A stretch of DNA of 64,000 nucleotides from a virus (IMGVR_UViG_3300046522_000512:1-64000); one strand, 5' to 3'. Positions 37,101 through 50,539 are shown, counted from the first letter of the stretch. A program made the numbers and translations. The notes: generated by a model from the letters alone, not told the origin.

Positions 37101-40100
37101 CGCCGACCGCGACGACCTGAACACCCTGGTCGATGGCGGCGCGAACCACGCCCTCCATGACCGGGTTGACGTCCTGCGCTTCGTCCCAATACAGGGTGTC
37201 GGCGTCGATCTTGAACCCACCGACCGCCCACATCTTCACGATGTAGTCGAAGTCCATCGGCAGGTCTTGACCCGCGTCGCCCTTGGTGGGGTCGGACAGG
37301 TTCGCCCACATGCGGTCGGCGAGCGGCTTCACCGCGTCGAACAGGTCGCGGGCCTCCTGCGCCGTCTTGGCGCCGGTGATGTGCTGCGGGCCCATCTCCG
37401 CGTCCGACGACTTCGCCCACGTCTTAATCATCAGCTCGGCGACAGTCGCGGCACCGCCCGGGGCCAGATCCCGGTCCCCGGCCTTCACCGTGTCGTACCA
37501 GCGCATGCGGTCCGCGATCTGCTGCGCGGACAGCTTCTTGAACCCGCCCGCCTTGTGGTTGGGCAGACGGTTGTTCAGCCGCTTGTCCGCGACCTTCGCC
37601 GCGTACCCGTTGGCCGTCGAAGCGGTCAGGTTCTTCGCGTACTCGCCGCGGGCCTGCGCCTCGCGCGCCTCGTTCGCCACCGACCGGTTGAACGCGAGAT
37701 AGACGATCTTCTTGCCCGGCATGCGGTGCGACAGCATCTTGAGCGTCGACGACTTGCCCGTACCGGCGAGCGCCATCACGGCCATGTTCAGGCCGCGGCG
37801 GGCCGCGCCCTCGATGATGATGCCCTGCTCCTCGGTGGGCGGGTACGCCTCGTTCGCCGCCGCCGCGGTGTCGATCCGCGCCCACTCCTCGTCGGAGTAG
37901 CCGCCCGCCTTGGCCGCGGGCAGGTCTTCCACCCGGTGCACCAGGCCGGTGGTCTCCGCGTCGTTCAGCCCGTACCCGGCCAGCCGGTCACGGATGACGT
38001 CGCCGCGCTTGCGCGGGATGACCTTCCCGTCTTCGCCGTACTCGGGCGTCGGGCTCCACCGGCGCCGCTCCTCTTCCTCCAGCTCGAACCGGCGCTGCTC
38101 CAGACGGAGCCGGTACGCGAGATCGACGGAGTCGGTCGCGTCCTGCAGCGGCGCGATCTGCTCGTCGAGAGTGTCGATCTCCTCGCCGATCTGGTCGCCG
38201 TCCATGTCGGCCGGCGGGGTGGCCGGGACCGGACGGGCATCCGACGGCGCGGACGGCCGCGGTGCCTTGCCAGCCGAGTCCGGGGCGCCCTGCTGCCTGG
38301 CGATCACGTCGCGGCGGTGACGCAGCTCTCGCTGAACGTCTGCCACCTGCGCCCCGAAGCGGCCAGAGCGCTCCTCCGGGGTCATCTCCTGGTCGTGCAG
38401 GGCATCAGCCAGGTGAAGGGCCGTCTCGCTCGCGGGGCCGAACACTCCGCCCGCGGCCTCACCCCACTGCTGGTCAAGGAACGTGAACAGCTCGTTGGAC
38501 AGTTGTCCGACGCGGTCCCGCGGCTCGTCGCCGAACTGCTCCTGATAGCCCGCCTTCAGCGAATCGAGTGCGTGGCGGCTGGTCGCCTTGTTCTTGGCGA
38601 ACAGGGCGCTCATCGGCAGGTCGCTGGACGCCGGGGCCGGCTGCGGGGCGTCGGCGGACCGCTGCCGCTCGGGCGCCTTCGTGACTCGATTGAAGGGGAT
38701 CGTCTCGCGGTCACCCGCGGGTCCGTCCACGACCACACCGTCATCGGTGGTCTCCACGACGGTGCCCAGCTTGCGCTGCGCGGGTCCGCTCTCGTCGTAC
38801 CAGTAATGGACCTTGTCGCCGGATTCGAACTGCTTGCCGTCGTCCGCGGACGGAGTCGGCTGGGGCAGAGGCGTCGTCGGGGTACCGGCGGCAGGCGGGT
38901 TCTCCTCGAACACGCCGTCACGGGTCCGCCCCATGATGTCGATGTACGGCACTTCGCGTTCCGCGCCGTTGCGGCCACGGAGAACGGCCGTGTCCTGGTT
39001 GGCCGAGCGGACGAACTCGCCGCTCTGCTGCATGTTCATGGCGTTCCGGTTGGAGAAGGCCACGGTGTCACCGGGCTGGAAGTCGCCGTCCTGCCAGGCG
39101 CGGCCGGTGGAGGGCGCGTCGCTGCCCTTGGCCGGGGTTTCCGGCGCGGGGGCCGGGGTGCCCGTCAGGCTGCGCCGGAACTGCTCCTGCGCCTCCCGCT
39201 CGATGCGGTCGCGCTGCGCGTCCTCGCGGCGACGCTTCTCGACCGTCACCGCGTGGCGGGCAAGGTAGTCGTCGGTGACCCGCATGAAGTTGTCCAAGGG
39301 CGCCTCCATGCCCTGGCGGTCGGTGTCGGTCAGCCGGTTCCGCAGGCGCTGCGCGTCCTCGCGGGCACCGGCCAGAGATGCGGCCGTGTCCTCGGTGTCG
39401 CCGGACTCCTGCGCGGCGATGGCTTGGAACACGTTGTCGCGCAGCGAACGGGCCGGGGCGGGCATGTCCCGGCCCCACGTGGTCTCGGCCGCGCTGGTGA
39501 CCTGACCCTGCGCGCCTTCCACTCCGGTGATGCCCGCGCGCCACTCGCGCTCGTTGGCGAACGGGCGCACCGTGTCGGCCGGCTTGGGGGCCGGGCGAGG
39601 GGCGGCCGGAGCCTGCGGGGCAGGCCTCGGGGATGGAGGCTGCGGCCCCGTTCCGGGCGTCCCGGACGCCTGCGGCGTCTGGCTGTTGCGTTCCTGGGGC
39701 GCCTCGTCGGCCGCGTCCAGGGCTGCGAGACGGGCCGTGCGGGCTTGTTCCCGCTCGTCGCGCAGAGCACGTGCCCGGCGCTCGCCTTCGGGCGTCATGA
39801 CGTAGTACTTGATCGAGCCTCCGCCCACGCGGGGCTTGCTCCGCTCGTCGGCGTACCCGAGGCGGAGGAGGCGACGGATCACGTTCGGGTGGGCCTCGAT
39901 CTGCTGGCCGTCGGGCCCGAGGCCCGAGTTCAGCGCGCTCTCAAGCGCGCGGGCCTGCGCGGTCGTCAGGCTCGGCTCGGCCTCGGGCTGCGAGGCCGGG
40001 GTCTCCTTGGGGGCGTCCTGGCCCTCGGGCTCGGCGCCGGTCCGGTCGGCGGCTGGGGATATCTCGGCGAGGTCGGCGCGGACCTTCTGCGGGTCCAGCG

Positions 40101-43100
40101 TGACCGTTTCGCCGCTGTTCTGGCCGCTGGGTGTCGAGGACTGTTCGGCGGCGGCGCGGGCGGCGCGGTTCTTCTCGCGGCGCTGCTGCTCACGCTCCAG
40201 CCCGGCGTGGCGGACCACGTCCTTGTCGCTGGCCTCGCCCTTCGCGATCCGCTCGGCGAGGGTGTCGGTCTCCTCCTTCAGGTCGGCATTGTTCATACCG
40301 AGGGCGTCCGGCTGCGCCGGGGCGGCCTGCGCACTGGACGACGTCCGCGCCAGGAACGCCTCACGCTTCGCGGCGAGCTTCTTCGCCCGCGCCGCGTCCC
40401 GGGCCTCGGTGGTGGGCCATATCCACTTCACGCGGCCCTTGTCGTCCTGCGAGATGGCAGGCGGGGCCGGTGTCTTGGGGACCAGGTTCACATCCCGCGC
40501 GGCGACCTGCGCAAGGACGTCTTCCTGGTCGTTGGACATGGCGCGCAGTTCGGCGTCCAAGGCGGCGATCTGCTTGTTGCGCTTGGCGGTGTCCTCCTCG
40601 GTCACCGTGGGCTGCGCCTTCAGCCGCATAATCTCGTTGAGGAGGTCCAGTTGCCGGGTGGACTCCTCGAACACGGTGGCGAGTTCGAACGGCTTCCCGA
40701 TCCGGCCGGCTGCCTGCTCGGCGGCCCGCTTCTTGTCCGCGCGCCGGTGTTCGGCGCGCTTGATCCGCTCGTCGATGTTGGCGATCGAGTTCTCGATGCG
40801 GGACAGCGGCAGCGTGCGCGGCTTGCCGTCGTGGTCGATGAGCTCGTGGTCCTCGTAGTCCTGCCAGGCGCCCGGGACCTGGGGCAGGTCGACGCGGACC
40901 GTGTTGTACCACTGGTTGCCGATGCTGCGGGTACGGACGAACCGGGCGGTGACTTCCAGGCCGCCAACCCGGCCGATCGGGATACCGGCCGCATTCTCGT
41001 CGTACGGGCGGCGCATGCCGTCCGCGTACACCGCCCGCAGGGCCGTGTTCAGCGCGTTGCGGGCGTCGTCGCGGGCGTCTCCGCCCTCGAAGTCGGTGGT
41101 GCCGATGGTGGCGTTGAAGTCGTCGCCGCGGGTGGGCTTGCGCTTCTCGACAGCCTGCTGGAGCTGCGCGACGTACTGCTTGGTCCACTCCTCGGCCTGC
41201 GCGGAGTCGCGGATGGCCTCCTTGAAGCCCTCCTGGGAGCGCCGGTAGGCGTTGAAGCGGCCCCGCAGCCGGTTCACGAGCGGCTTGAGCTGCGCCTGGG
41301 CGATCAGGTGCGGGTCGCCGGCGGTGAGGGCGCTGACCTCGTCTGCGTCGAAGTTGACGGGGCCGATGTCCTCGACGACGCGCTCGGAGAGCGAGCCGCG
41401 CATGAGGGCCCGGATGAACTTCGCCTTACGGGCGATGGCTTCCCAGAACTTGGCGTCGGTGGACCGCTCGGTGGCGTACTGGAAGATGGCGACTTCGTCG
41501 TTGGCGTTGCCCTGCCGGATGACGCGGCCGTTGCGCTGGTCGACGTCGGCGGGCCGCCACGGGGCGTCCACGTGGTGCAGGGCAACGGCGCGGAGCTGGA
41601 CGTTGGTTCCGGTGCCCATCTTGGCCGTGGACCCGAGCAAGACGGAGATCTTGCCGGAGCGGGCGTCGTTGAACAGGCGGGCCTTGGCCGCGTCGTCCTT
41701 CGCCTCGTGGATGAAACGTATCTGCTCGGCCGGGATGCCCCGGGCGATCAGGAGCGACTTCAGCTCGTCGTACGTGGAGAAGTCGGTGTAGGTCTCCTCG
41801 TCGTCGCGGGACAGCGACTCACTGCCGTCGTCGGTGAGGCTGGCGTCCATCTCGTCGGCGTCGGTGCCGCTGCCGGCCTTCTTCTTCCGCTTCTTGCTGC
41901 GGCCCGGGTCCTTCGGCGTGCCCAGGTCGAGGAAGACGATTTGCAGGCCGCCCGGCGTGTCGTGCGGGGTGGCGTCGGTCTTGCTCGTGGGGAAGACGGC
42001 GTCCTTCGTCTCCCCGTAGATCCGCACGACGTTGTCCGCGACCGTCGGCAGCTTGTTGCCGCCGCCGAGACTGGGGTCGAGAAGGCGCGGGTCGAGCGCG
42101 GCCATGCGGCCGTCGCCGAGGAGCTTGAGGTGGTTGTCCTCCTTCGGATCAACGTTGCCGCCCTCAAGGCGCGCTGCGCGGGCCCGGAGCAGTACCTCGT
42201 ACTCCTCCTGCGCCGGGGACATCGGCATGGTGATCGTGACGGCCTTGCCGCCGACGATGCCCGGCACGGGAAGGTCGAGGTCTTCAGCCGTCTTGACGTC
42301 GGCGAACGAGCGCCACAGCCGCAGCAGCTCGGGCACGTTCTGGAACGCCGCCAGACGCGTCTTCTCCTTGTAGGAGCCGTCAGGGCTGCGCTCGACCGCG
42401 GAGACCATCTGCGCGAACGTGGACGCGAAGTCGTCGAAGTCCAGCATCCCGAGCTCTTCGAGCAGGTCGGGGCGCAGGTAGCGCATCATCGTGTGGACTT
42501 CAGCGATGCTGTTCGCGACGGGGGTGGCCGTCGCGAACGTCACGACACGGCCGGTGTCGGACCGCTTGCGCAGCCACTCCAGCTTCATTTCCAGGTCGGA
42601 GGCCCGGTTGGAACCGTCGATCGCCGCGACCGAGGACGGCGTGTCGAGGTTCTTGTACATGTGGGCTTCGTCGACCACGAGGTAGTCGACGCCCATGTCC
42701 TCGAAGTGCAGGCCCGCAGCGTCTTTGAGGCCGCTGAGCTTCTTGTCCAGCTTCTCCTCAAGGCTCTTGAGGCTGGCCTCCATGCGCTTGACGAGGCGGG
42801 TGTCGTTGCCTTCGCCGTCGGCGTCCTTCTGCCGGAGGATCTTTTCTCGCAGCCGCTCCACGCGGCGGCCGATGTAGTCCTCTTGGATCTCCGGGCGCAT
42901 CTGGATCGACTCGAACGCGGTCTGCGTCAGGATGATCGCGTCGTAGTCACCGGCCGCGGCCCGAGCGATGAACTCGCGGCGGCCCTTGCCCGCCAGGTCT
43001 TCGCTGCTCGCGGTGAGGATCCGGTTGTTCGCAACGGACTCGGGGAAGATCTCCGCGAACTCGTGCCGGAACTGCTCCAGCATGTGCCCGGGGACGACCA

Positions 43101-46100
43101 TCGCGGCCTTCTTCACCAGGCCCAGGCGCCGCAGCTCCATGACGCCCATGGCCATCTCGGCCGTTTTGCCTGCACCGACCTCGTGCGCCAGGAGCACGGA
43201 CGGCTCATTGACCATCCGGGCGACGGCGGCGTGCTGGTGGGGGTGCGGGTCGAACCACTCGACCAGGCCGGGGATGGTGCGGCGCTGCCCGTCGTAGGAG
43301 CGCGGCGCCATCGAGTTGAAGTTGTCGTTGTAGAAGCGCTTGTGCTTCTCGGCGCGGTCGGGGTCGGCCCACAGCCAGTCCGTGAACGCCTCTCGCAGGA
43401 GGGTGGCCTTGGCCTGTGCGTCCTCGGTGGCGTCCTTGTCGTAGACGCTCTTGGCGTTCTCGCCGTGGCCTTCCTTCTTGGTGACGACGATCTTGCGGTT
43501 GGTGAGGATCGCCTCGGCGATCTCCAGAGCGGTGTAGCCCTTCGCGCTCCACGTGTGTGCGGTGCGCTCCGCGATGCTCTTCTTCGCCCCGTCGGGGGCG
43601 TCGACCGCCCACAGGGCGCCGCCCTGCCAAGACACCGTGATCCGCTGGTCGCCGAGGGTCTCGCGGAGGAACTGTTCGACCGGCTCACGGCCGATCCAGG
43701 AAGCGCCCATCGGGGCGGCGATCTCGCCGGTGGACAGATCCGGCGGGACGACCCGCTCAAGGTGCTCGACGTTCAGGTCGTAACGGCTGTCGTCTGCCGC
43801 GGCGCGGCGGGCCTCATCGAGCTTCGTGCGGACGTTCCCCGACAGGTAGTCCGCGGCCGTGACGAGCTCGCCGTCCGGGGCCTGGAACGCCATCGGGTAC
43901 TCGACGCCGGTGTCCGAGTCGACGGAACGAGCCGTCAGCAGTCGCGCGATGGCAGTGTCTGCGTCGGTGCGCATGACGCGGGCGAGGCCGTCGGCGGTCA
44001 GCCGGCCGTCGGTCTCCAGCACGATCGCAAGAGCGTCCTGCGGGTCGTCCGCGTACTTCGCGATCTCCCGGTACGTGCCAAGCCGCTTGCTGAAGATCGG
44101 CGCCTTGGTGGTCTTGCGGGTGGTGTCGTCGAACTCGTCGAGCGGCGTGATGTTCGACATCGTCGGGTCGTTGGTGAACAGGCCACCGCGCGCCGCCTTC
44201 TTGCGGTACGTCTTCTCGACCTTCTCCCCGGTGTCGGGGTCGATGGCGGTGCGCTTGGACCACGTGAACCGGTTGATGGCGCCGAACTTGGAGTGGTAGG
44301 CGTCGTACTGCTTGTTGAGCGCCTCCCGGAGTCGCTCGATCAGGGACTCGTCGGCGTCCTTGCGGTTCTCCTCCGCAAGGAGGGACTGGAACGTGTCGCG
44401 GATCGCGAGGAGCTGCCGGGCCTCGTTCGCCTGCGTCTTGAAGACGGGGAAGGGGTGCACCATGCCGTCGCGGACCTGCGTGAAGGACCCGTCCGGTTCG
44501 GCCTGCACGTGCCCGTCGACCCGGGAGGAGCCGGGCGGCAGAAGCGTGACCTTGCTGCGGCCCTCCGTGTCGGGCTTGTAGGCGAGGCCTGCCGCCTTCG
44601 CCTCCTCGACGGTCCGCTTCAAGGCCCGTTCCAGGTTGGCGATGGTCTTGCCGTCGCCGTCCACGCGCAGCTCGTTGTCCCGGTGCATGCCGTGGCCGAC
44701 CGCGAGCTTGCCGAGGATCTGCTGAGGGTTGTCGTGGAAGTAGCTGTTGTAGAAGACAGGCGGCTCGACCTGATCCGGCGGCGTGCCCGGCTTGGGCGGC
44801 GTCTGCCCGGGAAGGGCGTACGTGGGCAGGGAGTGCACCCACATCGGCGGGTCGTTCTGCGTCCGCTCCGACGGCCGCTTGATCTCACCCTTGCGGTTGC
44901 GGCCCGATGTGAACGACTTGCTCTTGTCGCGGCGCCGGAAGATCAGAAGGTCCGTCATCACCGACGTGCCCGCGGTGCGCTGGTGCGCGCCGGACGGCAG
45001 ACGGATCGCGCCGACCAGCTCGCCCTTCTCCGCCATCTCCATACGGGCGGCCTCGCTGCGCCCGCCATGGCCGTCCATCGTCAGCGACGACGTCACGACC
45101 GCGACCAGGCCGCCACCACGGGTCAAGTCCAGGGACTTGAGGATGAAATGGTTGTGGATCGAGTGGCCACCCTTGTTGTGCACCAGGTCGGGCACCTTGT
45201 ACCGGCCGAATGGCACATTGCCGACCGCCGCATCGAAGGTGCCGTTGGGGGCGCGGGTGTCACCGAACGACTCGTGCCGGACCTCGGCGTGCGGGTAGAG
45301 GGCCTTCGCGATGCCCGCGGTGATCGAGTCGACCTCGACACCGGTCATGTGCGTGCCGTCGGGCGCGTAGCCGATGAAGTTGCCGACGCCGGATCCGGGC
45401 TCCAGCACACTGCCGGCGTCGAACCCGAGGTCGGTCAGGGCCGCCCACATCTGCTGCACGATCTGCGGGTCGGTGTAGTGCGCGTTCAGCGTGTTCGCGC
45501 TCGCGTCGGCCCACTCGGCATCGGACAGCAGCTCACGCAGCCGCTTCGCGAGCGGCTGGAACTGCGCATCCGGCTGCGGCTTGAAGATCTGGGGGACCGC
45601 ACCCCACCCGGAGTACCGGGCGAGTTCCTGCTGCTCGGCCCCGGTCGCGGGACGGTTCTCGTCCTGGAGGCGGCGCAGGATCTCGATGGCGGCGATGTTC
45701 GCCTTGGCCCGGTTGACCGGGCTCGACGGAACGAGAGTCTTCCCGTCGGCAGGGGGCTCGTAGGCCGGAGCAGTGGCCTGCTGCTCCGGCGTACCGAACG
45801 CTACGGGAGCTGAGGCAGCTCCACCCGCGGCATGTCCTTCGTCTCCGTTCCCGGATCCTTCGGCATCCCGTACACCATGTCGTGCAGCACCCGTTCCCGG
45901 GCCCGCATCCGGACCGACTTCAGCTCGCGAGCCCGCGCCACCGCGTCCGTGCCCTCCTGCAGCGGAGGAGCCCACTCCTCCGTCAGTTCCTCGATCTGCT
46001 GCACGATCTCGTCCGACCGCTCCCGGGCGAACTCCTCGAACGCCTTGTCCGTCGGGAACCGATCCACTTCCAGCGGCCGGTACGTCTTCCAGAACGTCCG

Positions 46101-49100
46101 AACGAGATCCACGTACGACACTGTCATTGCTCCTCTTGTGCTGTTCGGACAGGGCCTGTCGAGCGACGCTCACGTTCTCACGCGCCAGGCGCAGGAACTC
46201 GGCCGCATGGGCATGGTTGGCGCCGCCGCGGCCGCGCAGGGCGCGCTGCATTCCGTCGAGGGCGCCTTGGAACTGCTGGATGGCTTCCGACGGCGTGATG
46301 TCACCGCGCTTCAGCGCGTCCACGGCGTCACCGGCAGGCGCCGCCAGGTCGTGCGCGGCGGGCGCTCCACGCAGCTCGGTCAGACTGTTGATGACCGGGC
46401 CGAGCTGCTGCTCCGCCACATCGAGCGCTTCCACGATGTGGTTGCCCGCGGCGGTGGTAGCCGCCATGTCGGCCAGGCTCGGGCCCTGGTCGGCGTTGGG
46501 GGCCGGCTGCGGGGCCGCCTCGGGGGCCGGGGCGGGGGCGTGGTCGGTGTCGTGCTCGCGCACCAGGTCCGCGAGGGCCGCCTCCTCGGTGAGGAACGGC
46601 TTCTTGGAGCTGTAGCGGGTGCCGTGACCGAGCCGGTTCCACGTCCAGCGACCCGCAGAGCCCTGGAGCGTGGCGTCGTCCTGGTTGCCGCCATCGACGG
46701 CGGCGGGGCGGTGGCCCGACTCATTGTGCGCGCCGAGCTGGACGCGGGAGAGCTGCTGTGCGTACGCCTGTCCGTCGCGGCGCTGGGCCTCGGCGAGGAT
46801 CGCCGTCTTCTCAGCCTGGGCGCGGGCCCTCTTCGCCTGGTCGCCGGAGGACAGGGTGTCAGACCAATCCTGGTCGGCCTTCGCAAAGGCGGCGTCGAGG
46901 TCCTCGCGCGACACCTGCGACCAATCCCGCTGCTCGGGCTTCGCCTGCGGGGCGTCGGGGTTCGGGGTGTTGGTGCGGTCGCCCGCGTACGGGGTGCCGT
47001 CGGGGCGGGTGATGTCCTTCAGCGCGTGGGAACGCGTGCCCCGCTCGGCGCGCACGAGCACAGAGCCGGAGTCGCGGTTTACGGCCATGACCGAGCCGAC
47101 ACCGTCAGGCGAGTTGACCTCGTCGCCGTTGTTGGGGAAGTCGCCTTCCGGCGTGGCCTGCGGGGCGCTCGGCGCGGCCGCGGCCGGGGTAGCCGCAGGG
47201 GCCGGGGCGGGCTTGTTCTGCTGCTCCTGCCGCTTGCGGTACTCGTTCGCGGCGTGGGACTCCGGGGCGCCGTGGGCGATGTCCCACTGGCCCCGCTGGT
47301 CGTCCATCTGGTTGCCGAAGGCCCGGCTCCACACCCCGACCCGGTGCCGCTCGCGGGGGCCCAGCTTCGGATCCCACCAGTCGACTTCCTGGTCCGGGTT
47401 GGACGACTCGCGCACCCCGCGGCCGACCTGCATGGCGAACTGGCTGGCATCCTCCCAGGACTTGAAGCCCTGCCCTGCGCCGCCGGACCAGCCGAGGGCT
47501 CTGCCGTCGTAGGCGCGGTGCACATCGAACCGGTGGGGGCCGCGCTGGACGATCGCGAAGCCGAAGTGGTTGGCCATGGTGACGTTCCACTTGGGGTTGC
47601 CCGCCATGGCGCGCACCCCATCGCTGTACACGCGATCCAGGCCCGGGGCGCCGCCGTTCTTCCAGTACTCGCGCAGCTCACCGGTGTTGCCGGGCTTACG
47701 GAAGCCGACCTTGTCGTCGCCGTTGTTGCCGCTCGGTCCGACGTGGCCGACGGCGATGTTCTGCCGGGGGATGCCAGAGGTGTCGGCGATGGACTGCGCG
47801 GCCTGCACGAGCGGGTTCGGCCGCTCGGTCGGGGCCGCGGGAGCCGCGGGAACGGCCGGGGCCGGGGCCGGCGGGAGGACGGCGGGGGTCGCGGGAGCGG
47901 GCGTGTTCCTCGCGGCCGCGCCCTCACGCTTCTTCGCGGCCTTGTCCGCGAATACCTTCTTCGCCTCCACGCTGGCCTGGCGCACCATCTCCTGGCCCTC
48001 GGGAGACTCCAGGCGCTGGTGATAGCCGGGGCTGTCCCAGTCGAACGGCTTGTCGCCGAGCTGGGCGGCCTCCAGGCGGTTCGCGAAGTCGACGGCTTCG
48101 CCCTTGCGCTCCGACATGGCCAGGCGGACGCCGCTGCCGGAGACGATGACCGCGTATCCGGTCTTGCGCTGGCCGTTCTTCTCCACGGTCATCTTGGCGA
48201 TGACGAACCGGCCGCCGCGGGAGAGCTGCGGCCTGTCGAGCTTGGCGAACAGTGCGGCGGTTTCCCGCTGGTGCCGCTCCTGCTGGGCCTTGTCCTGCGT
48301 GTACGGCTCCAGATTGCCCTTCCGCCAGTAGGCCTGAAGCTCGTCGAGGTTCTTGAAGAGTTTGCCGCCCAGGGCGCTGGCCGGTCTGGCTGCCTGCGGC
48401 CGCATGGGCATGCTCGTGTTGCCTTCACCCGGGGGCAGGCCTCCGCGAGAGCCGGGGCCCTTCTGGGGGCCGTCGGAGCGCCAGGCCCGGGGAACGAGCG
48501 GCTGACTCTTCGGGCGGTTCTTCCTCGGCGCGGGGATCGGCTCGTTGCCGTGACTGGTGAAGCGCTCGTGAGCGAGGCGCAGCGCGTCACGCAGGTTGGC
48601 GGCGTACCGGGCAACCTCGTCCTGGCCGTCGTTGTGGGCGATCTCCGACAGCTGGTTGGCCTCGTCCGCGAGCCAAGACAGGCGTTCCACGTCGTCCGGG
48701 TTGAGCTGGTCGTTCTTGTCGTCCCGGACGTCGAATCCGGTACCGGCGTCGGCCAGGCTGTCGTACAGCTCGTCGGCTTTGGCGTTGTGCCAGTTCGCCG
48801 GCCAGACGCCTTCCAGGTCCCCGAAGTACTCCTCACTCAAGTCGCGCACGGCGCGCCGGGCGTGGCTGGTGTCCCAGAACTGGTGGAAGTGGTCGTCTAC
48901 CGGGGGGCCGGCGGCGCGCAGCGCATCACCGTTGCCCATGACGTGCCGCTCGTGGGGGGTGTCGTCCGCGTTCCTGTCGATGGGCAGCAGGTCGGGGAAG
49001 CTCGGCATGGCGACGTTGCCGCGCCGCCGGGGCGGCAGAGGGTCGCCGTCGTTGTCGTGGATGTTCGTCATGACGCGGCCCTGCGGGACGAGCGGCTGAT

Positions 49101-49629
49101 CGTCGTCGTGGTTCGGGTCATCGGGGCCGGCGCCGAGATCCTGGCCCTCGATGTCCTGGCCGATCGGCTTGCCCTGGTCGTCGCGCTCGTGGACGGTGTC
49201 CGGGGTCTGGCCGTTGTCACCGCGGTCGTTGGCGGGGTGGTCGGCGCCCTCGGCTGTGTCGTCCTTCGCCGGGTCGTGCGGGCCGTGGCCAAGCCCGCGG
49301 TTCTCATCGCCGTAGCGCCGCTCGTCCTCGTCGCGGACCTTGGACTTGCTCTTGGTCGGCGCGGAGCCGTCCGGGCGGCTGACCATGGTCAAGCGGGCGG
49401 CGTTGATGCGGGAACGCTGGTGGGTGGCCAGGTTCTCCACGAGGACGTCGCGGCCACCGAGCGCGCGCAGGACGCGGGCCATGCCGCCGCCCCACATGCG
49501 GGCGATACCGCCCGTTTCCACGAACCTGCCCTTGGAGTCACGGGGGTGCAGATCCGGGTTCCACGTGCGGCGCAGCCTCTTGGTTTCGAGGCTGGCGAGG
49601 ATGCGGTCTACGGCGGTGGTGATCGGCAT
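25198..49629 (-). CDS. Giant (~8,143 aa) DarB-like polyvalent protein: N6-adenine MTase, SF2 helicase, UvrD-like SF1 helicase, many SH3/Tudor-like repeats and a degenerate zincin-like C-terminus
   Basis: Uninterrupted ORF with high GC3. MTase VLEPGSGVGNF/VGNVPFG (~45200-45410). SF2 AHEVGAGKT, VDEAH, GTGTNVQ, PWRP..QRNGRVIRQGN (~41500-43200). SF1 ALAGTGKS, DEAQD, VGDSNQAIYGFRGA, HKSKGLE, YVAVTRA (~36080-37780). N-terminal WNPDLHPRDSKGRF. Start at ATG 49629 inferred from promoter spacing. Confidence 0.93.
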   Translation of the reverse strand: MPITTAVDRILASLETKRLRRTWNPDLHPRDSKGRFVETGGIARMWGGGMARVLRALGGRDVLVENLATHQRSRINAARLTMVSRPDGSAPTKSKSKVRDEDERRYGDENRGLGHGPHDPAKDDTAEGADHPANDRGDNGQTPDTVHERDDQGKPIGQDIEGQDLGAGPDDPNHDDDQPLVPQGRVMTNIHDNDGDPLPPRRRGNVAMPSFPDLLPIDRNADDTPHERHVMGNGDALRAAGPPVDDHFHQFWDTSHARRAVRDLSEEYFGDLEGVWPANWHNAKADELYDSLADAGTGFDVRDDKNDQLNPDDVERLSWLADEANQLSEIAHNDGQDEVARYAANLRDALRLAHERFTSHGNEPIPAPRKNRPKSQPLVPRAWRSDGPQKGPGSRGGLPPGEGNTSMPMRPQAARPASALGGKLFKNLDELQAYWRKGNLEPYTQDKAQQERHQRETAALFAKLDRPQLSRGGRFVIAKMTVEKNGQRKTGYAVIVSGSGVRLAMSERKGEAVDFANRLEAAQLGDKPFDWDSPGYHQRLESPEGQEMVRQASVEAKKVFADKAAKKREGAAARNTPAPATPAVLPPAPAPAVPAAPAAPTERPNPLVQAAQSIADTSGIPRQNIAVGHVGPSGNNGDDKVGFRKPGNTGELREYWKNGGAPGLDRVYSDGVRAMAGNPKWNVTMANHFGFAIVQRGPHRFDVHRAYDGRALGWSGGAGQGFKSWEDASQFAMQVGRGVRESSNPDQEVDWWDPKLGPRERHRVGVWSRAFGNQMDDQRGQWDIAHGAPESHAANEYRKRQEQQNKPAPAPAATPAAAAPSAPQATPEGDFPNNGDEVNSPDGVGSVMAVNRDSGSVLVRAERGTRSHALKDITRPDGTPYAGDRTNTPNPDAPQAKPEQRDWSQVSREDLDAAFAKADQDWSDTLSSGDQAKRARAQAEKTAILAEAQRRDGQAYAQQLSRVQLGAHNESGHRPAAVDGGNQDDATLQGSAGRWTWNRLGHGTRYSSKKPFLTEEAALADLVREHDTDHAPAPAPEAAPQPAPNADQGPSLADMAATTAAGNHIVEALDVAEQQLGPVINSLTELRGAPAAHDLAAPAGDAVDALKRGDITPSEAIQQFQGALDGMQRALRGRGGANHAHAAEFLRLARENVSVARQALSEQHKRSNDSVVRGSRSDVLEDVPAAGSGSVPDGQGVRGVRPGAVGRDRAADRGTDGGVGSSAAGGHGRGGAGSRAEVGPDAGPGTGAARHGVRDAEGSGNGDEGHAAGGAASAPVAFGTPEQQATAPAYEPPADGKTLVPSSPVNRAKANIAAIEILRRLQDENRPATGAEQQELARYSGWGAVPQIFKPQPDAQFQPLAKRLRELLSDAEWADASANTLNAHYTDPQIVQQMWAALTDLGFDAGSVLEPGSGVGNFIGYAPDGTHMTGVEVDSITAGIAKALYPHAEVRHESFGDTRAPNGTFDAAVGNVPFGRYKVPDLVHNKGGHSIHNHFILKSLDLTRGGGLVAVVTSSLTMDGHGGRSEAARMEMAEKGELVGAIRLPSGAHQRTAGTSVMTDLLIFRRRDKSKSFTSGRNRKGEIKRPSERTQNDPPMWVHSLPTYALPGQTPPKPGTPPDQVEPPVFYNSYFHDNPQQILGKLAVGHGMHRDNELRVDGDGKTIANLERALKRTVEEAKAAGLAYKPDTEGRSKVTLLPPGSSRVDGHVQAEPDGSFTQVRDGMVHPFPVFKTQANEARQLLAIRDTFQSLLAEENRKDADESLIERLREALNKQYDAYHSKFGAINRFTWSKRTAIDPDTGEKVEKTYRKKAARGGLFTNDPTMSNITPLDEFDDTTRKTTKAPIFSKRLGTYREIAKYADDPQDALAIVLETDGRLTADGLARVMRTDADTAIARLLTARSVDSDTGVEYPMAFQAPDGELVTAADYLSGNVRTKLDEARRAAADDSRYDLNVEHLERVVPPDLSTGEIAAPMGASWIGREPVEQFLRETLGDQRITVSWQGGALWAVDAPDGAKKSIAERTAHTWSAKGYTALEIAEAILTNRKIVVTKKEGHGENAKSVYDKDATEDAQAKATLLREAFTDWLWADPDRAEKHKRFYNDNFNSMAPRSYDGQRRTIPGLVEWFDPHPHQHAAVARMVNEPSVLLAHEVGAGKTAEMAMGVMELRRLGLVKKAAMVVPGHMLEQFRHEFAEIFPESVANNRILTASSEDLAGKGRREFIARAAAGDYDAIILTQTAFESIQMRPEIQEDYIGRRVERLREKILRQKDADGEGNDTRLVKRMEASLKSLEEKLDKKLSGLKDAAGLHFEDMGVDYLVVDEAHMYKNLDTPSSVAAIDGSNRASDLEMKLEWLRKRSDTGRVVTFATATPVANSIAEVHTMMRYLRPDLLEELGMLDFDDFASTFAQMVSAVERSPDGSYKEKTRLAAFQNVPELLRLWRSFADVKTAEDLDLPVPGIVGGKAVTITMPMSPAQEEYEVLLRARAARLEGGNVDPKEDNHLKLLGDGRMAALDPRLLDPSLGGGNKLPTVADNVVRIYGETKDAVFPTSKTDATPHDTPGGLQIVFLDLGTPKDPGRSKKRKKKAGSGTDADEMDASLTDDGSESLSRDDEETYTDFSTYDELKSLLIARGIPAEQIRFIHEAKDDAAKARLFNDARSGKISVLLGSTAKMGTGTNVQLRAVALHHVDAPWRPADVDQRNGRVIRQGNANDEVAIFQYATERSTDAKFWEAIARKAKFIRALMRGSLSERVVEDIGPVNFDADEVSALTAGDPHLIAQAQLKPLVNRLRGRFNAYRRSQEGFKEAIRDSAQAEEWTKQYVAQLQQAVEKRKPTRGDDFNATIGTTDFEGGDARDDARNALNTALRAVYADGMRRPYDENAAGIPIGRVGGLEVTARFVRTRSIGNQWYNTVRVDLPQVPGAWQDYEDHELIDHDGKPRTLPLSRIENSIANIDERIKRAEHRRADKKRAAEQAAGRIGKPFELATVFEESTRQLDLLNEIMRLKAQPTVTEEDTAKRNKQIAALDAELRAMSNDQEDVLAQVAARDVNLVPKTPAPPAISQDDKGRVKWIWPTTEARDAARAKKLAAKREAFLARTSSSAQAAPAQPDALGMNNADLKEETDTLAERIAKGEASDKDVVRHAGLEREQQRREKNRAARAAAEQSSTPSGQNSGETVTLDPQKVRADLAEISPAADRTGAEPEGQDAPKETPASQPEAEPSLTTAQARALESALNSGLGPDGQQIEAHPNVIRRLLRLGYADERSKPRVGGGSIKYYVMTPEGERRARALRDEREQARTARLAALDAADEAPQERNSQTPQASGTPGTGPQPPSPRPAPQAPAAPRPAPKPADTVRPFANEREWRAGITGVEGAQGQVTSAAETTWGRDMPAPARSLRDNVFQAIAAQESGDTEDTAASLAGAREDAQRLRNRLTDTDRQGMEAPLDNFMRVTDDYLARHAVTVEKRRREDAQRDRIEREAQEQFRRSLTGTPAPAPETPAKGSDAPSTGRAWQDGDFQPGDTVAFSNRNAMNMQQSGEFVRSANQDTAVLRGRNGAEREVPYIDIMGRTRDGVFEENPPAAGTPTTPLPQPTPSADDGKQFESGDKVHYWYDESGPAQRKLGTVVETTDDGVVVDGPAGDRETIPFNRVTKAPERQRSADAPQPAPASSDLPMSALFAKNKATSRHALDSLKAGYQEQFGDEPRDRVGQLSNELFTFLDQQWGEAAGGVFGPASETALHLADALHDQEMTPEERSGRFGAQVADVQRELRHRRDVIARQQGAPDSAGKAPRPSAPSDARPVPATPPADMDGDQIGEEIDTLDEQIAPLQDATDSVDLAYRLRLEQRRFELEEEERRRWSPTPEYGEDGKVIPRKRGDVIRDRLAGYGLNDAETTGLVHRVEDLPAAKAGGYSDEEWARIDTAAAANEAYPPTEEQGIIIEGAARRGLNMAVMALAGTGKSSTLKMLSHRMPGKKIVYLAFNRSVANEAREAQARGEYAKNLTASTANGYAAKVADKRLNNRLPNHKAGGFKKLSAQQIADRMRWYDTVKAGDRDLAPGGAATVAELMIKTWAKSSDAEMGPQHITGAKTAQEARDLFDAVKPLADRMWANLSDPTKGDAGQDLPMDFDYIVKMWAVGGFKIDADTLYWDEAQDVNPVMEGVVRAAIDQGVQVVAVGDSNQAIYGFRGASDALSKLPVDARATLTQSFRFGPAVANVGNRFLRLLGTRMRLKGFDRKDSRLGNIKPGDETMVIARTNAGVALAAVEALAAGRTIAVSGGVKDLQEFVTAARALANGERTSHAELARFNGKSYEDILDEVNSDPELQQLKSLFALLDKHPDEIDKLMESGAQAADTENVGGRVWVTLDWNDPKVDQLKRWLGDAKTNGVGKLLYDRESRRYYYEPGKRTESFTKNGRTINYQVDNKLSLEDAKAKIDAHLAKLYPQEDTGGGRLVDEKKPHDLLVTTAHKSKGLESEKVRIADDFRGPEYDDNGHIKWDTVPEDEDLRVAYVAVTRATDVLDAGSLGWVFEAVNDGDPTQPPTGEYRRDWVLDDFKPGDRINFQEEDGTPQVGEVARLDGPGLIARYDVDGQQREQYIGTAQVQRRNGQDRPQLPVASEDELNQAVAEGRYPEASGGAPAKLDAGKVRDELAALKNDQPSPETTEPRKEANTGSPAAPDPATGIITGDQVPPGPDATAADKEAYRRRFDIRYQVGYYVDYRNDDGETVTARVVNTRGNPILRDDAGHEFRADPNWYADHFIAVRKDDGSALPRPAWADTLPDGFRAVPPNEIQPGHVIREGSSSDKLWGSRFVMAKTVDEDGRTTLYTAQLATQGGGGLGLDPRQLVVLDETEESRQLAEEALHRRDVKESAKLQGLTLPTELPAGPNRQAQEGSTAREWHNGDTAVTPNGEGRVILAEDGKVVVLDGGGAPRTYEPRQLSMPGEARTAEHNAPTAQEAARGEKRQQDLESAQTPEGLGLFYGARLANLDLEEGHGQVLDEDGNVVGWIRRRGTVWHGQDARGGQTGGGTAQSASDPLYGPREAAQAVDSNRRDNGMRVALKDTAWRHLRPEEGRDTVQYSELSDAQREEFFKLAKEWAKSSDHELSEAAKHWGQGGLNYRQMNRLAEEATATADSVDASTPEGRRRQAVLQRLADKIRAQASRAWHSWQTMPPPGEPDVPRDVDAPDWVPYGHRETSKTDAPVKLDAAQVRTELADLNGSDSSPAADGDPGKASPEPEADGETIDADQARINDYVRVEVSDTLDRTRVHEGYLLANPRKGKGHRPRHGDFDAWILYIGNGPNQSPGRGNQVDIPADQKIQRLPAPEAPALGPVDIDSVKPGQYIRATVPDADGNEVTREGYVVSAAARRDGPRRDDPVMSWQVHIADTPHAVHAWDDVIEVPAGHEVERMSPPGPVPELEIPDVPGLDLSEYTRPDQKEVDEYRKWAGVWANPAPDGPRNALLDRVKNMPGPASRPLSPKAAPRWIGDAGDAFPLDQFDENTRHLLAQYDGDQRDFLAGHAASMREATQRLAGEFRAASREIMIPRIATRSGMKDAAEKLGALWAGDSERSRQVVLDQIAAAVADADRHGLTEQQVKDFLVGVAGGDDPEQRANGLTGAFPEVGRSLSSASDDVKAYYAGFHAWRGQNDDQSFSGYHHYNNRRSALGGEYLPVADPRTGDGQFIVGEAELPDGMRWTRLQNLKPGDLYRPARGYYAKDNRFDGLDAAHVVVNLHADGKEGRPRTTSLSTGSHTEHPGDWVVHLTAPEPALRKKANAKLRDKWVKKENEDDARKWEAAQAISRRPDGEAADVASLQEGERLRVRGSNEFIGGIYVAEGDLLEPPERAQMWRGGSQVDGWRLLLSTHGHAGDHIYVADGESDEWAERLSRDTNAPETGASGTNAPETGESQTNEPGTDEPKPDESGDGEPKPDESENNDDRDRRRRRRNQLGNGAPNGGGGGLPGGLGMGLPNFPDSSTPSTGSGRGRGDGSGRTPAGTGQADNANPAAGLPDEFAALRQRYDGDMVPASEIQVGDWVHIVGADQMYNEPKHLVGRVLHTRQFNGGVRIEVESRDPLKGGDAVQRESAALYDGELAERLPEGNPGREDTSDLKRRMETWEERASASRVPVPEGWQAVDGSRIQPRIGDRFRIVARQDGKRTQHMNVVVERSNDWQGDGYWKVKNQARRFHPSDIVAIPEGADVQYRTDVPEPAESTPQRPERTPSVPDISDEPRAEIVNPNEPQRGDRVRVETQNTAGSKVTREGFLLAPARSVTATRDGERLKAWRLHLSDNPDAKPNVRNGVTILADDKVARLPDTDAPAAGGADVPREGGATPVGGQDGASSSNAPSAGGSDAPGAGDGQGAAPTGDAPAPTSQYGINAAHGEGRRAGTVDGRRIPTHDELRQYQTGENGIISEEGERALFGSPERIQELAAQGFTPSPKLVSDHGREEVWRNGRLIGSVRAPHTTGFYMTPPEERWEGEMPLGNHYHNGTFSTRDAAIAHLVLRDMEQGEPDLSIVHPDIAWDFRGSNLSLGFPPEEEGLRGLESLNDNPADMERYRKIRALADALGRGETISGNVADDLDHLHDELRWLDATHYKYQPADLKHKHILGPGWLADEIRDYLDVLRPEDPRAMHHEISKARASKQFLDDLVDEGGKDRAESVPVTDLRAGDIVDLDGRITNRYPGATTRRTGYVVGEPRPASITINKKRQKAVRIHVASSVVGAHQLAGDTFVIPVGDNAQRLMSADDVNLPVEEYRYGRQVGEAPEVAPQRATSSGDNTPAPAEERPAAAPNTPAPAPAPVPAEERPAPAKETPAPAPAKETPAPAPAKETPAPAPAEDRPAPAAKTPAPAKERPAPAEETPKPSADKAEPERPAVPEPVHGRPAEWVKVSDIRQGDVVRIDGITKGGTARTLAGYVMDGPTEVPTVRARRVQDMVRVLIAETPDGSTKRESVWVKPDATAARATREIGDEATTVQTGADSDVLTGRVADRVATDGGGNGLFPGSVVTDDDGREGVVVGANSAGVRVQFGDDRTDDAHEPSTLNVIDGGAARPSGWTTDGHRVNVGNWVSDRDGNMLGTVEELDGDTATVATTEGMKPMPVTDLRVIGDTDNNGQDGTPAAQRRKEPITSREPAPTVEPVTGPTVDPELAPEERDAVADRGTAPGDAPEAQQGAARIARDLPVTPEQAAAIAEGLRQNADPSTAEGRAAKRAADRLDQAAGQTGTSNDDGGMTTEARYLSTGDVIVAPVNGEPSRLLVVEGIRSEDGKTVNLLLANADGRFISDSVGARAPFRPLPYDSALEGGGVADQADRRIVKATELKPGDHLVFGTGANGSDWFTRKVQSVSVGDKQVTVELEGLAGRPSTTRTFQILGGSLAESVSVMDRERPAAAWFAANQRRLTGEADAPNPDADSAPAGRPEPGTVGSVGVGDTIALPDETNPDEMASYRVTDVQDAPGGLRVLTVEDGNGQRSERTMAAGDPLYQLPEPQVPADDDAEARDPNAGLDTAAFTADYGDLVARAVVDAAVEGTQTPGSIHQLREQIAAKVTAGALRSAMRRVQRDAQAVVDGSGITGDERERLLAELRRMAMRSRIDAVQAAVQTLDDLEPLDGESPEDTAARAADLLRLIPESLRNRSESDEPDLDTGVGDGDGSADGEATPEPDAGAGSPVDDEVQGHVDGAVGEALRDADTGLLTPERRAAIVARLAQRMADSRDGAAQRIAAQLPEGERPGMLARITAALVQIARRVVELVAAFLKGLAAAVAYPFKAINRFRKGLVRRVRSWPETRRLRRIAAAARSLPRHGDGMSLADQVAHWARLLPAPGHFGQVSRRRRWYRLATRSSLAAGQLPGVQDGTGWTMDRAADRGPGRHALRHLAAVRAAGTDVDADVVARLMAAAPELGDDPHGTVRHARRYQDRAEARVRNLRAVAAGQGAPDLGPEIAAAQVEAQHARQEADRLHQAYTAALPGAVRDTLAQVREMGPGGRNRLTLSHSSDPAAARALADAAGYVPREWLADRTARFVTAVDGDAGSYDADSGTATVADLGDGGRGTAVNALVAHLQRSYPDLLAAQEVFGFTRTHTGRPGARRSTLDALLERLFGGRAEDVTDDQIVARGLATMFSGDWYRDDDLRAFLLGLLATR
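29040..29290. repeat. Pro/Ala linker with 27-bp tandem repeats (PAPAPAKET)
   Basis: GGGGTCTCCTTGGCCGGAGCCGGGGCC repeated about three times, plus degenerate flanking copies. Confidence 0.85.
45801..46127 (-). CDS. TnpV-like protein, nested out of frame in the giant ORF
   Basis: 108 aa with AAGAGGAG before the ATG. High GC3 in this frame, while the giant frame has low GC3 and low complexity here. FWKTYRP...RARELKSVRMRARERVLHDMVY resembles TnpV-family proteins. Confidence 0.8.
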   Translation of the reverse strand: MTVSYVDLVRTFWKTYRPLEVDRFPTDKAFEEFARERSDEIVQQIEELTEEWAPPLQEGTDAVARARELKSVRMRARERVLHDMVYGMPKDPGTETKDMPRVELPQLP

Positions 49630-49636
49630 GCGGCGG

Positions 49637-49664
49637 ACCATGCACACCGGGGATGGTTAACGTC
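49637..49664 (-). promoter_or_regulatory. Putative late promoter (copy 12, giant gene)
   Basis: GACGTTAAC-N13-CATGGT, 7 nt before ATG 49629. Confidence 0.72.
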
Positions 49665-49916: not shown

Positions 49917-50539
49917 GACGTCGTCTCCATTGCTGAGGAGGGCAGGGGGCGGGGGCCGGTGCCGTCGTACGGGGCGGCGAGACCGGCATTGATCAGGGCG
50001 CGATTGAGCTCGTGGCCGTAGGGGGTCGCGATGGTGGCGAGGTAGCGGCCGTACTTCTCGCGGCGCTCGGTGTCGACGGTGAACGCGGGCCCGTGCGCGG
50101 CGACCCACTCGCGGACCCAGTCGGCGGCGTGCTTCCCGGCGTCGGTGTTCTTCTCGGCGGTGTTGATGCCGAGGAGCCGGACGCGTTCGAAGGCGCGGAG
50201 CTCGAACCCGAGGTCGATGGCGAGGTCGAGGGTGTCTCCGTCGATGACGCGGGTGATGCTCGCGCTGTAGGTGTGCGGGGCCGGGGCGTCGGTCAGGGTC
50301 GCGAGGTAGCGGCCCTTGGTGTCGCGGGTGGTCTGGACGGTGAGCGGCCCGCCGCTGGCCTTCAGGTGTGCGCGGGCCCACGCGGCGGCCTTCTTCGGGT
50401 CGTCGGTGGTCGTGTCCGCGGTCGCCACGGCGGTCAGGCGGACGCGTTGGGCCAGGTGCAGGTCGAACCCGAGGTCGATGTCGAGGTCGAGGGCGCCCGC
50501 GCGGCCGATGCTGAGGAGGGTGGTGCGGTAGGTGTGCAT
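49913..50539 (-). CDS. Thermonuclease (SNase) family protein with duplicated domain
   Basis: ATG 50539 overlaps the portal stop. The second copy has RVIDGDT, RVRLLGINTAE, KYGRYLA and LNRALINAGLA. The first copy is degenerate. Confidence 0.88.
   Translation of the reverse strand: MHTYRTTLLSIGRAGALDLDIDLGFDLHLAQRVRLTAVATADTTTDDPKKAAAWARAHLKASGGPLTVQTTRDTKGRYLATLTDAPAPHTYSASITRVIDGDTLDLAIDLGFELRAFERVRLLGINTAEKNTDAGKHAADWVREWVAAHGPAFTVDTERREKYGRYLATIATPYGHELNRALINAGLAAPYDGTGPRPLPSSAMETTS

What the first reader, a model, noticed from the sequence alone, without database searches (positions are those of the whole stretch)
45801..46127. Same-strand, out-of-frame TnpV-like gene nested inside the giant ORF just ahead of the methyltransferase domain
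Seen: across these 327 nt the giant frame drops to A/T-ending codons (AAT GAC AGT GTC GTA CGT GGA TCT) and a Gly/Arg/Ala low-complexity peptide. The alternative frame has an RBS-like AAGAGGAG, an ATG, G/C-ending codons and a helical protein ending RARELKSVRMRARERVLHDMVY. Inference: true dual coding. The giant protein grew by reading through a formerly separate partner gene of the MTase-helicase, and that gene is still under selection, perhaps as a chaperone or inhibitor.
Basis: partly seen in the sequence, partly recalled or inferred. Interest (0 to 1): 0.82.

Follow-up and report, generated by a model that had tools for sequence, protein, structure and literature searches.

The report
TnpV-like gene nested in giant ORF
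A real 106-108-codon gene for a small helical TnpV-like protein is written one base out of frame inside the floppy-linker part of an 8,149-codon phage anti-restriction (methylase-helicase) gene, and both readings are kept in about 20 actinobacterial mobile elements, so one stretch of DNA very probably encodes two proteins.

Summary
Only at 46127..45801 (minus strand) does GC3 of the giant frame fall, from about 0.9 to 0.40, while the +1 frame rises to 0.88. That frame encodes a protein with SD, start and stop. The conserved start is GTG 46121, not ATG 46127. Pfam TnpV is sub-threshold (15.8 vs 27 bits), but a profile of the homologues matches a threshold-passing TnpV of Micromonospora pVMKU (hhalign 96.4%).

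The layout recurs in about 20 actinobacterial plasmids, phage-like contigs and genomes at 20-94% identity. The helicase frame is -1 relative to tnpV and open across all of it. No conserved start exists for the methylase part. SD motifs are conserved and no slippery site is present. Substitutions peak at the tnpV third position inside the overlap and at the giant-frame third position outside it.

Short forms without the big N-terminal module also start upstream of tnpV.

An AF2 model of the nested protein is confident (pLDDT 92.6). A complex model with the methylase region passes its controls (0.78 vs 0.00). There are no expression data.

This scan has noted the same kind of nesting before on other DNA. 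I found no paper describing it.

The parts
45801..46121 (-). Nested tnpV-like gene. It is 106 codons from the conserved GTG (46121..46119) to TAG (45803..45801) and lies in the +1 frame relative to the giant ORF. An alternative ATG at 46127 would give 108 aa.
   Evidence: ORF and translation. GC3 is 0.88 against 0.40 in the giant frame. The GTG start is conserved in relatives. Homologues were found. hhalign to a Pfam-passing TnpV gives 96.4%. The AF2 model has pLDDT 92.6.
46130..46137 (-). Shine-Dalgarno-like AAGAGGAG. Its GGAG core lies 8 nt upstream of GTG 46121.
   Evidence: Sequence. A GGAG/GAGG motif at -8 to -14 is present in 23 of 23 lineages. The initiation region is no more structured than shuffled sequence (z = +1.0).
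25198..49647 (-). Giant polyvalent DarB-like ORF of 8149 aa, read continuously in one frame.
   Evidence: ORF. GC3 is about 0.9 throughout outside the overlap. Pfam finds SNF2, ResIII, Helicase_C, a weak Eco57I methylase match and UvrD-type helicase. The gene lies between portal-MuF and prohead protease/capsid genes.
45799..46128 (-). Giant-frame linker, about residues 1174-1283, Gly/Ala/Val/Arg/Asp/Ser-rich. This stretch is the one that also encodes the nested gene.
   Evidence: Composition. No stop in this frame in 20 of 20 lineages tested. Omega in this frame is about 1-2.6, so it shows no amino-acid constraint.
46129..49647 (-). N-terminal module of the giant protein, about 1174 aa, with no Pfam hit. 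It has no stop codon before the nested gene.
44068..45798 (-). Conserved N-terminal domain plus N6-adenine methylase region directly after the tnpV stop. It contains the motifs ANIAAIEIL, WSGWG, EPGSG.GNF and NVPF. No start codon in this frame lies within 340 nt after the tnpV stop.
   Evidence: The weak Eco57I hit covers residues 1459-1543. This region is the predicted docking partner of the nested protein.
41509..43251 (-). SNF2/SF2 helicase domains of the giant protein (residues 2133-2713).
   Evidence: Pfam SNF2-rel_dom, ResIII and Helicase_C are above their cut-offs.

Best explanation
This is a same-strand, out-of-frame (+1) nested gene pair.

The 8149-codon gene encodes a capsid-module polyvalent DarB-like protein: an N-terminal module, a linker, a methylase, an SNF2 helicase and further modules. 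Ribosomes that start at its 5' end read straight through 46128..45799 and produce an unconstrained Gly/Ala/Arg/Asp-rich linker.

On the same mRNA, other ribosomes bind the internal Shine-Dalgarno sequence (46137..46130) and start at GTG 46121, or possibly ATG 46127. They make a 106-108-aa four-helix TnpV-like protein that ends at TAG 45801.

Selection acts on the amino-acid sequence of the small protein. On the giant frame it acts only to keep the frame free of stops.

The small protein is most likely a dedicated partner of the methylase-helicase. The model places it against the methylase domain near catalytic motif IV. Nesting keeps the two genes co-inherited and co-transcribed.

What is shown: both frames are conserved and the selection pattern differs between them. 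What is inferred: translation of both frames, the binding, and any regulatory role.
For: 1. Frame switch. GC3 switches frame exactly over the nested ORF.

2. Recurrence of the layout. It is seen in L001, L005, L007-L012, L014 and L017, which are Streptomyces plasmids and IMG/VR contigs at 31-94% identity. It is also seen in 12 of 15 TnpV-like loci from 401 Actinomycetes genomes. In each, the WSGWG methylase motif or a long downstream ORF lies in the -1 frame, and that frame is open across tnpV.

3. Open giant frame. It has zero stops in 20 of 20 lineages, while the other off-frame has 2-8. Synonymous permutation gives P(open) of 0.11-1.0 per lineage, product 1e-9. The empirical background is 0.28.

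4. No route around the overlap. There is no stop for the upstream module and no conserved start for the conserved FRP..Q.DLAP / ANIAAI region that follows the tnpV stop.

5. Short forms. They carry a giant-frame ATG about 80 nt upstream of tnpV, with a conserved peptide (IDGQLSLESLWA). Its variable sites are mostly third positions: 11, against 6 and 5.

6. Substitution pattern. Third-position variability follows the tnpV frame inside the overlap (0.40 vs 0.20 and 0.26) and the giant frame outside it. Omega is 0.05-0.72 in the tnpV frame and 0.98-2.6 in the giant frame. dS is lower than in the flanks.

7. Initiation signals. An SD motif is present in 23 of 23 lineages and there is no conserved slippery heptamer.

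8. Family evidence. hhalign of the family against the stand-alone pVMKU TnpV (Pfam 28.4 bits, cut-off 27) gives 96.4%, E 1.2e-9. A profile search finds 1138 cluster representatives at E <= 1e-3, and the best 150 are all 85-303 aa.

9. Fold. AF2 gives pLDDT 92.6 and pTM 0.81.

10. Complex model of the nested protein with giant residues 1280-1860. The median ipSAE is 0.78 and the best control 0.00. That mark was reached by 58 of 80 solved complexes and 2 of 110 mismatched pairs, and those counts hold only roughly because my own alignments were used. The three runs scored 0.83, 0.78 and 0.00. The runs agree in at least 0% of contacts, and the partner's pLDDT is at least 75. No solved relative of the small protein exists.
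Against: There is no RNA, ribosome-profiling or peptide evidence for either product. Everything rests on comparison and models.

Pfam TnpV is below its cut-off for the window protein (15.8 vs 27 bits) and for most actinobacterial relatives.

A single open off-frame of this length is common in 70% GC DNA. The lineages are not fully independent, so the combined probability overstates the case.

One of the three complex runs gave 0.00. Foldseek found no informative fold match.

L022 breaks the frame rule. L006 and L013 keep an intact tnpV after losing the helicase. So tnpV may have a role that does not depend on the helicase.
Confidence: 0.8

Rival explanations
1. Three ordinary genes (upstream module, tnpV, methylase-helicase). 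The giant frame merely happens to stay open across tnpV in GC-rich DNA. The methylase-helicase starts independently or by reinitiation after the tnpV stop, and the linker peptide is never made.
For: Between 23% and 28% of 106-codon off-frame windows are open by chance in this gene. RefSeq annotates tnpV and the helicase as separate genes in L015, L016 and L002. The remnant L006 has a GTGA stop/start overlap at the junction.
Against: The upstream module has no stop in any intact relative. The giant frame has no ATG/GTG/TTG between the tnpV stop and the conserved FRP.../ANIAAI region in the window, L012, L017, L021 and L028. Where a start does exist, it lies inside the conserved region. The junction codon is GTA, not a start, in all intact lineages. 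The giant frame is open in 20 of 20 lineages. A conserved giant-frame peptide lies upstream of tnpV.
Confidence: 0.07
2. Programmed ribosomal frameshifting. In this reading TnpV is an in-line domain, reached by a +1 shift into it and/or a -1 shift out of it into the methylase-helicase, rather than a separate product.
For: The helicase frame is always -1 relative to tnpV, as a -1 shift would need.
Against: No X_XXY_YYZ heptamer is conserved. None occurs at all in the window or in 16 other lineages. The giant frame is open along the whole of tnpV, not only near its end. SD, start and stop are conserved. The best 150 family members are all short proteins.
Confidence: 0.04
3. In the giant (phage-type) forms the nested frame is a fossil. 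It is no longer translated, and its codon bias and ORF merely persist.
For: No expression data exist. The giant forms use the weaker GTG start.
Against: Giant forms that share only 31-37% identity (window, L001, L011, L012/14/17) all keep the ORF, SD, GTG and GC3 of 0.88-0.97. Omega in the nested frame is below 1 among close relatives. The invariant motifs persist.
Confidence: 0.06

Closest known systems
comS nested out of frame in srfAB of Bacillus subtilis (own knowledge, not tested here)
   Same: A small same-strand gene with its own start sits in a shifted frame inside a very large multidomain ORF. Both products are made from one mRNA.
   Different: comS is 46 codons, confined to close relatives of B. 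subtilis, and overlaps an enzymatic domain. Here the nested gene is about 106 codons and belongs to a large family (1138 cluster representatives). It overlaps an unconstrained linker and is predicted to bind the host protein itself.
Rz1 embedded in Rz (phage lambda spanins) and overprinted genes of phiX174 (own knowledge)
   Same: A phage gene is fully embedded in the +1 frame of another gene, and the two products work together.
   Different: For the spanins the embedded gene is the younger, lineage-specific one. Here the embedded gene is the sequence-constrained one, and the host frame pays for the overlap with a low-complexity linker.
TnpV of Tn4451-type transposons (Pfam PF14198)
   Same: Small helical protein of mobile elements. 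The C-terminal half aligns to profile positions 58-111. The family profile aligns end to end with a threshold-passing TnpV.
   Different: The window protein scores 15.8 bits against a cut-off of 27. Most actinobacterial relatives also fall below it. The function of TnpV is not established.
DarB-like methylase-helicase dyad of polyvalent proteins (Iyer et al. 2017, PMC5512222)
   Same: An N6-adenine methylase is followed by an SNF2-type helicase, preceded by a conserved N-terminal domain. The gene lies in a phage head module.
   Different: That paper contains none of the words TnpV, overlapping or frameshift. At 8149 aa this protein is far larger than P1 DarB.

Membership tests
TnpV (Pfam PF14198) | Score at or above Pfam's gathering threshold (27 bits) | tested here: not met
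   The window protein scores 15.8 bits, E 0.014. Nine of 15 relatives give sub-threshold hits, best E 0.0045.
TnpV (Pfam PF14198) | Detectable homology to a bona fide (threshold-passing) member | tested here: met
   The pVMKU protein L002:2394-2831 scores 28.4 bits. hhalign of alignment A1 against it gives 96.4%, E 1.2e-9, over 85 columns from residue 1.
TnpV (Pfam PF14198) | Small (about 100-150 aa) all-helical protein of a mobile element | tested here: met
   106-108 aa, with helices at 4-14, 16-20, 25-50 and 60-84 and pLDDT 92.6. The context is a phage-like element.
Same-strand nested (overprinted) gene pair | Both frames open, and kept open across diverged relatives beyond chance | tested here: met
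   20 of 20 lineages, with a product of permutation probabilities of 1e-9 and a background of 0.28.
Same-strand nested (overprinted) gene pair | Selection signature in the nested frame | tested here: met
   Third-position variability and GC3 follow the nested frame inside the overlap. Omega is 0.05-0.72 there, against 0.98 or more in the host frame.
Same-strand nested (overprinted) gene pair | Own translation-initiation signals | tested here: met
   SD plus GTG/ATG in 23 of 23 lineages.
Same-strand nested (overprinted) gene pair | Both products detected | not testable with these tools
DarB-like methylase-helicase dyad (polyvalent proteins) | N6-adenine methylase motifs followed by an SNF2/SF2 helicase in one polypeptide | tested here: met
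   EPGSG.GNF and NVPF are invariant in alignment A4. The Eco57I-type methylase hit is weak. SNF2-rel_dom, ResIII and Helicase_C are above their cut-offs.
DarB-like methylase-helicase dyad (polyvalent proteins) | LPD36 domain N-terminal to the methylase | not tested
   No LPD36 model was on hand. A conserved region (ANIAAI...WSGWG) is present where the paper places it.
DarB-like methylase-helicase dyad (polyvalent proteins) | Encoded among virion or transfer genes | tested here: met
   Portal-MuF at 50539-52998, prohead protease at 21141-23123 and capsid at 19670-20974 flank the gene.

The most novel reading that the evidence does not exclude
The TnpV-like protein is an obligatory subunit or inhibitor that docks beside catalytic motif IV of the DarB-like methylase. 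Writing it inside the linker of its own target gene is an ancient solution, used in several phyla, that locks the pair together and sets their ratio. Low ribosome traffic on the giant ORF leaves the internal start site free, so the small protein is made in excess. The same linker position in an AT-rich Campylobacter plasmid also holds a 159-codon +1 ORF, which would make this one of the most widespread long overlapping gene pairs in bacteria.
Probability: 0.35. Interest if true: 0.8.

Novelty: new variant of a known kind. Interest (0 to 1): 0.68.

Why it matters
Well-supported long (over 100 codons) same-strand overlapping genes are very rare in bacteria and their phages. This one is conserved across a whole class of bacteria.

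It offers a clean natural system for asking how two frames co-evolve: here one frame gives up its amino-acid sequence and becomes a disordered linker.

It also exposes a systematic annotation error. RefSeq either omits tnpV inside the giant ORF or truncates the helicase start.

TnpV has had no function since Tn4451 was described. This work gives it a concrete, testable candidate partner, the methylase module of DarB-like anti-restriction proteins.

Tried and rejected
- Foldseek of the model against PDB and BFVD gave nothing with E <= 0.001; the top rows were histone H2B at TM about 0.33.
- The PDB sequence search gave only a designed repeat protein and coiled coils.
- The phage collection (tblastn) gave no match.
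- No sigma-70-like promoter or intrinsic terminator lies in 45400-46700.
- No slippery heptamer is present, so frameshifting was rejected.
- The alignment-based scan of viral contigs failed because no block was conserved enough.
- PF14198 was not found by the genome search in the Lactococcus and Campylobacter plasmids or in the 14 control genomes.
- The Campylobacter nested ORF shows no detectable homology to the family, so I do not call it TnpV.
- The Gordonia pG135 gene upstream of its helicase is not TnpV-like.
- Literature searches for TnpV with helicase or methyltransferase, for nested or overlapping genes in Streptomyces, and for DarB or polyvalent proteins with overlapping genes found no description of this arrangement.
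- I did not test RNA runs, because they cannot separate the two frames.
Full report
THE OBSERVATION

The window has 70% G+C. It holds an 8149-codon ORF on the minus strand, 25198..49647. In 50-codon windows, GC3 of this frame is 0.76-1.00 along all 24 kb except for the three windows covering 46197..45748. There it is 0.60, 0.44 and 0.50, and the +1 frame reads 0.76, 0.92 and 0.84.

The +1 frame holds an ORF, 46127..45801, of 108 aa. AAGAGGAG lies just upstream of it. Across it the giant frame reads a Gly/Ala/Val/Arg/Asp/Ser-rich peptide.

An open off-frame of this length is not rare in this DNA: 23-28% of windows in the same gene are open. The argument has to rest on other evidence.

IS THE NESTED FRAME A GENE?

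Six close homologues of 104-123 aa are called as separate proteins in public data. Related loci were found in two Streptomycetaceae genomes, five IMG/VR contigs and seven plasmids. They were also found in 15 of 401 sampled Actinomycetes genomes. A profile search of 1.8 billion representatives gave 1138 hits at E <= 1e-3. The best 150 are all 85-303 aa.

The alignment has invariant motifs at both ends: Y..L...FW.TYRP and MRARE..L.EMVY..KEPGTE.

Among the close relatives (window, L007, L009, L005, L010), variable sites peak at the third position of the nested frame inside the overlap (0.40 vs 0.20 and 0.26). In both flanks they peak at the third position of the giant frame. Omega is 0.05-0.72 in the nested frame and 0.98-2.6 in the giant frame. 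dS inside the overlap is below that of the flanks.

All 23 lineages examined have GGAG or GAGG at 8-14 nt before the start. The start shared by all relatives of the window is the GTG at 46121. The ATG at 46127 lies only 2 nt from the SD and is missing in L009, L005, L001 and L011.

AlphaFold2 on a 15-row alignment gives a four-helix model with pLDDT 92.6 and pTM 0.81.

IS IT TnpV?

Pfam TnpV matches the C-terminal half at 15.8 bits, below the cut-off of 27. Most relatives are likewise sub-threshold.

In Micromonospora maris plasmid pVMKU, the gene just upstream of the methylase-helicase passes the threshold at 28.4 bits. The profile of the window's family aligns with it from residue 1 over 85 columns (hhalign 96.4%, E 1.2e-9).

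I call the protein TnpV-like: homologous to the family, but a divergent actinobacterial branch.

IS THE GIANT FRAME REALLY READ THROUGH?

The same layout occurs in L001, L005, L007-L012, L014 and L017, at 31-94% identity of the nested protein. In none of them does the upstream module have a stop.

In the window, L012, L017, L021 and L028 the giant frame has no ATG, GTG or TTG between the tnpV stop and the strongly conserved region that follows (FRP..Q.DLAP / ANIAAI...WSGWG). Where a start codon exists it lies inside that conserved region. The junction is always G-TAG or G-TAA, which reads GTA (Val) in the giant frame. The methylase-helicase can therefore only be made by ribosomes arriving in the giant frame from upstream of tnpV.

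The giant frame has no stop across tnpV in 20 of 20 lineages, whereas the third frame has 2-8. Synonymous permutation gives 0.11-1.0 per lineage, with a product of 1e-9. The lineages are not independent, so this figure is an upper bound on significance. Even so, one sequence per clade gives about 4e-8 (my own multiplication of the values).

No -1 slippery heptamer is conserved.

THE OVERLAP IS OLDER THAN THE GIANT PROTEIN

Plasmids that RefSeq annotates with a separate tnpV and helicase (L015, L016, L002) also have the helicase in the -1 frame and open across tnpV. So do most chromosomal or plasmid loci from the genome sample.

In one clade (L024-L028, L030) the giant frame has an ATG 76-82 nt upstream of the tnpV ATG. 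It is followed by the conserved peptide M..RR..IDGQLSLESLWA, in which third positions vary most: 11 sites against 6 and 5. Related short motifs sit at the same place in L023, L032, L013, L031, L033 and L034.

The ancestral state in this group is therefore a short N-terminal peptide, then a linker that overlaps tnpV, then the methylase-helicase. The phage-type elements added a large N-terminal module in front: 1174 aa here.

Exceptions:
- L022 has the helicase in another frame.
- L035 is a second tandem copy.
- L006 and L013 have lost all but 60-95 residues of the helicase yet keep tnpV.

CONTEXT

The record is an 84.8-kb IMG/VR contig. The giant gene lies between a portal-MuF gene and the prohead protease and capsid genes. 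It carries methylase motifs, SNF2 helicase domains and UvrD-type helicase domains.

This is the DarB-like methylase-helicase dyad of polyvalent proteins (PMC5512222). That paper mentions neither TnpV nor overlapping genes.

FUNCTION

The nested protein has no solved or predicted structural relative that says anything about function.

I ran a complex model with giant residues 1280-1860. The median ipSAE was 0.78 and the best control 0.00. That mark was reached by 58 of 80 solved complexes and 2 of 110 mismatched pairs, though these counts hold only roughly because I supplied my own alignments. The three runs scored 0.83, 0.78 and 0.00. The runs agree in at least 0% of contacts, and the partner's pLDDT is at least 75.

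The confident contacts flank catalytic motif IV (NVPF at chain positions 198-201; contacts at 188-190 and 209-214). They also cover a helical region at 431-577.

This supports binding but does not show it. It fits a regulatory or structural subunit. Whether the protein is a chaperone, an inhibitor or a specificity factor is open.

BEYOND ACTINOBACTERIA

The methylase region has matches in 1963 plasmid records. I looked at two:
- A Campylobacter coli plasmid has a 159-codon +1 ORF at the same linker position, in AT-rich DNA. It has no detectable homology to this family.
- A Lactococcus plasmid has no nested ORF. There the short motif sits about 45 residues before the methylase N-domain.

Earlier notes of this scan report tnpV nested in polyvalent genes of Firmicutes and of a prophage. 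I did not verify those.

VERDICT

Dual coding is very likely (0.8) but rests on comparative evidence alone. It is a new, widely conserved variant of the known class of nested genes. Current annotation mishandles it, and I could not find it described in the searchable literature.

Noticed in passing
L024-L028, L030 (about 80 nt upstream of tnpV); also L023, L032, L013, L031, L033, L034; L038:2296-2420; L037 (giant frame, about 45 residues before KANLAAIRL): A short conserved motif sits in the helicase frame just before the tnpV-overlapping linker (IDGQLSLESLWA, AQLSLWG, DQLTLWDL, DLFSLFD, RSLFDLIELEF, ISLFDSFD). From memory it resembles the QL[SD]LF beta-clamp-binding motif. That resemblance was not tested. 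The window's giant form has no obvious copy at this place.
   Followed up: partly
L038:2426-2905 (+), Campylobacter coli plasmid pCC20JX12-60K: A 159-codon ORF lies in the +1 frame inside the 5' linker region of the SNF2/methylase gene of an AT-rich plasmid. It occupies the same position as tnpV here but has no detectable homology to TnpV by Pfam or hhalign.
   Followed up: partly
L001, L012, L014, L017 versus L015, L016, L002: RefSeq annotation is inconsistent. Giant forms are annotated as one CDS with no tnpV. Short forms have tnpV annotated, and the helicase start is placed at a GTG or TTG inside the conserved N-terminal region.
   Followed up: yes
L006:5839-6635 (Actinacidiphila soli); L013:5889-6665 (Thermobifida pTH1): These are remnants. 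tnpV is intact with GC3 of 0.9, but only 60-95 residues of the methylase N-domain remain. In L006 the junction has become GTGA, a possible new start, and the tail of the upstream module sits in the tnpV frame.
   Followed up: partly
tnpV start codons in 23 loci: All nine forms nested behind a long N-terminal module (including L021) start with GTG. Thirteen of the other 14 start with ATG. This may reflect phylogeny or tuning of expression.
   Followed up: no
window 34300..45813 (+): A 3837-codon ORF lies antisense to the giant gene. This is the usual high-GC artefact, not a gene.
   Followed up: no
window 21141-23123 (-) and 50539-52998 (-): The prohead protease (Peptidase_S78) carries a 2H phosphoesterase / 2'-5' RNA ligase-type domain. 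The portal protein has a weak C-terminal MuF-like match.
   Followed up: partly
window 49647-49500 (-): The N-terminus of the giant protein carries the motif NPDLHPRDSKGRF. There is no obvious SD before GTG 49647, and in-frame ATGs occur at codons 3 and 7.
   Followed up: no
L029 / L035 (same contig, 149454-150348): Two TnpV-like genes lie in tandem. Only the downstream copy is overlapped by the helicase frame.
   Followed up: no
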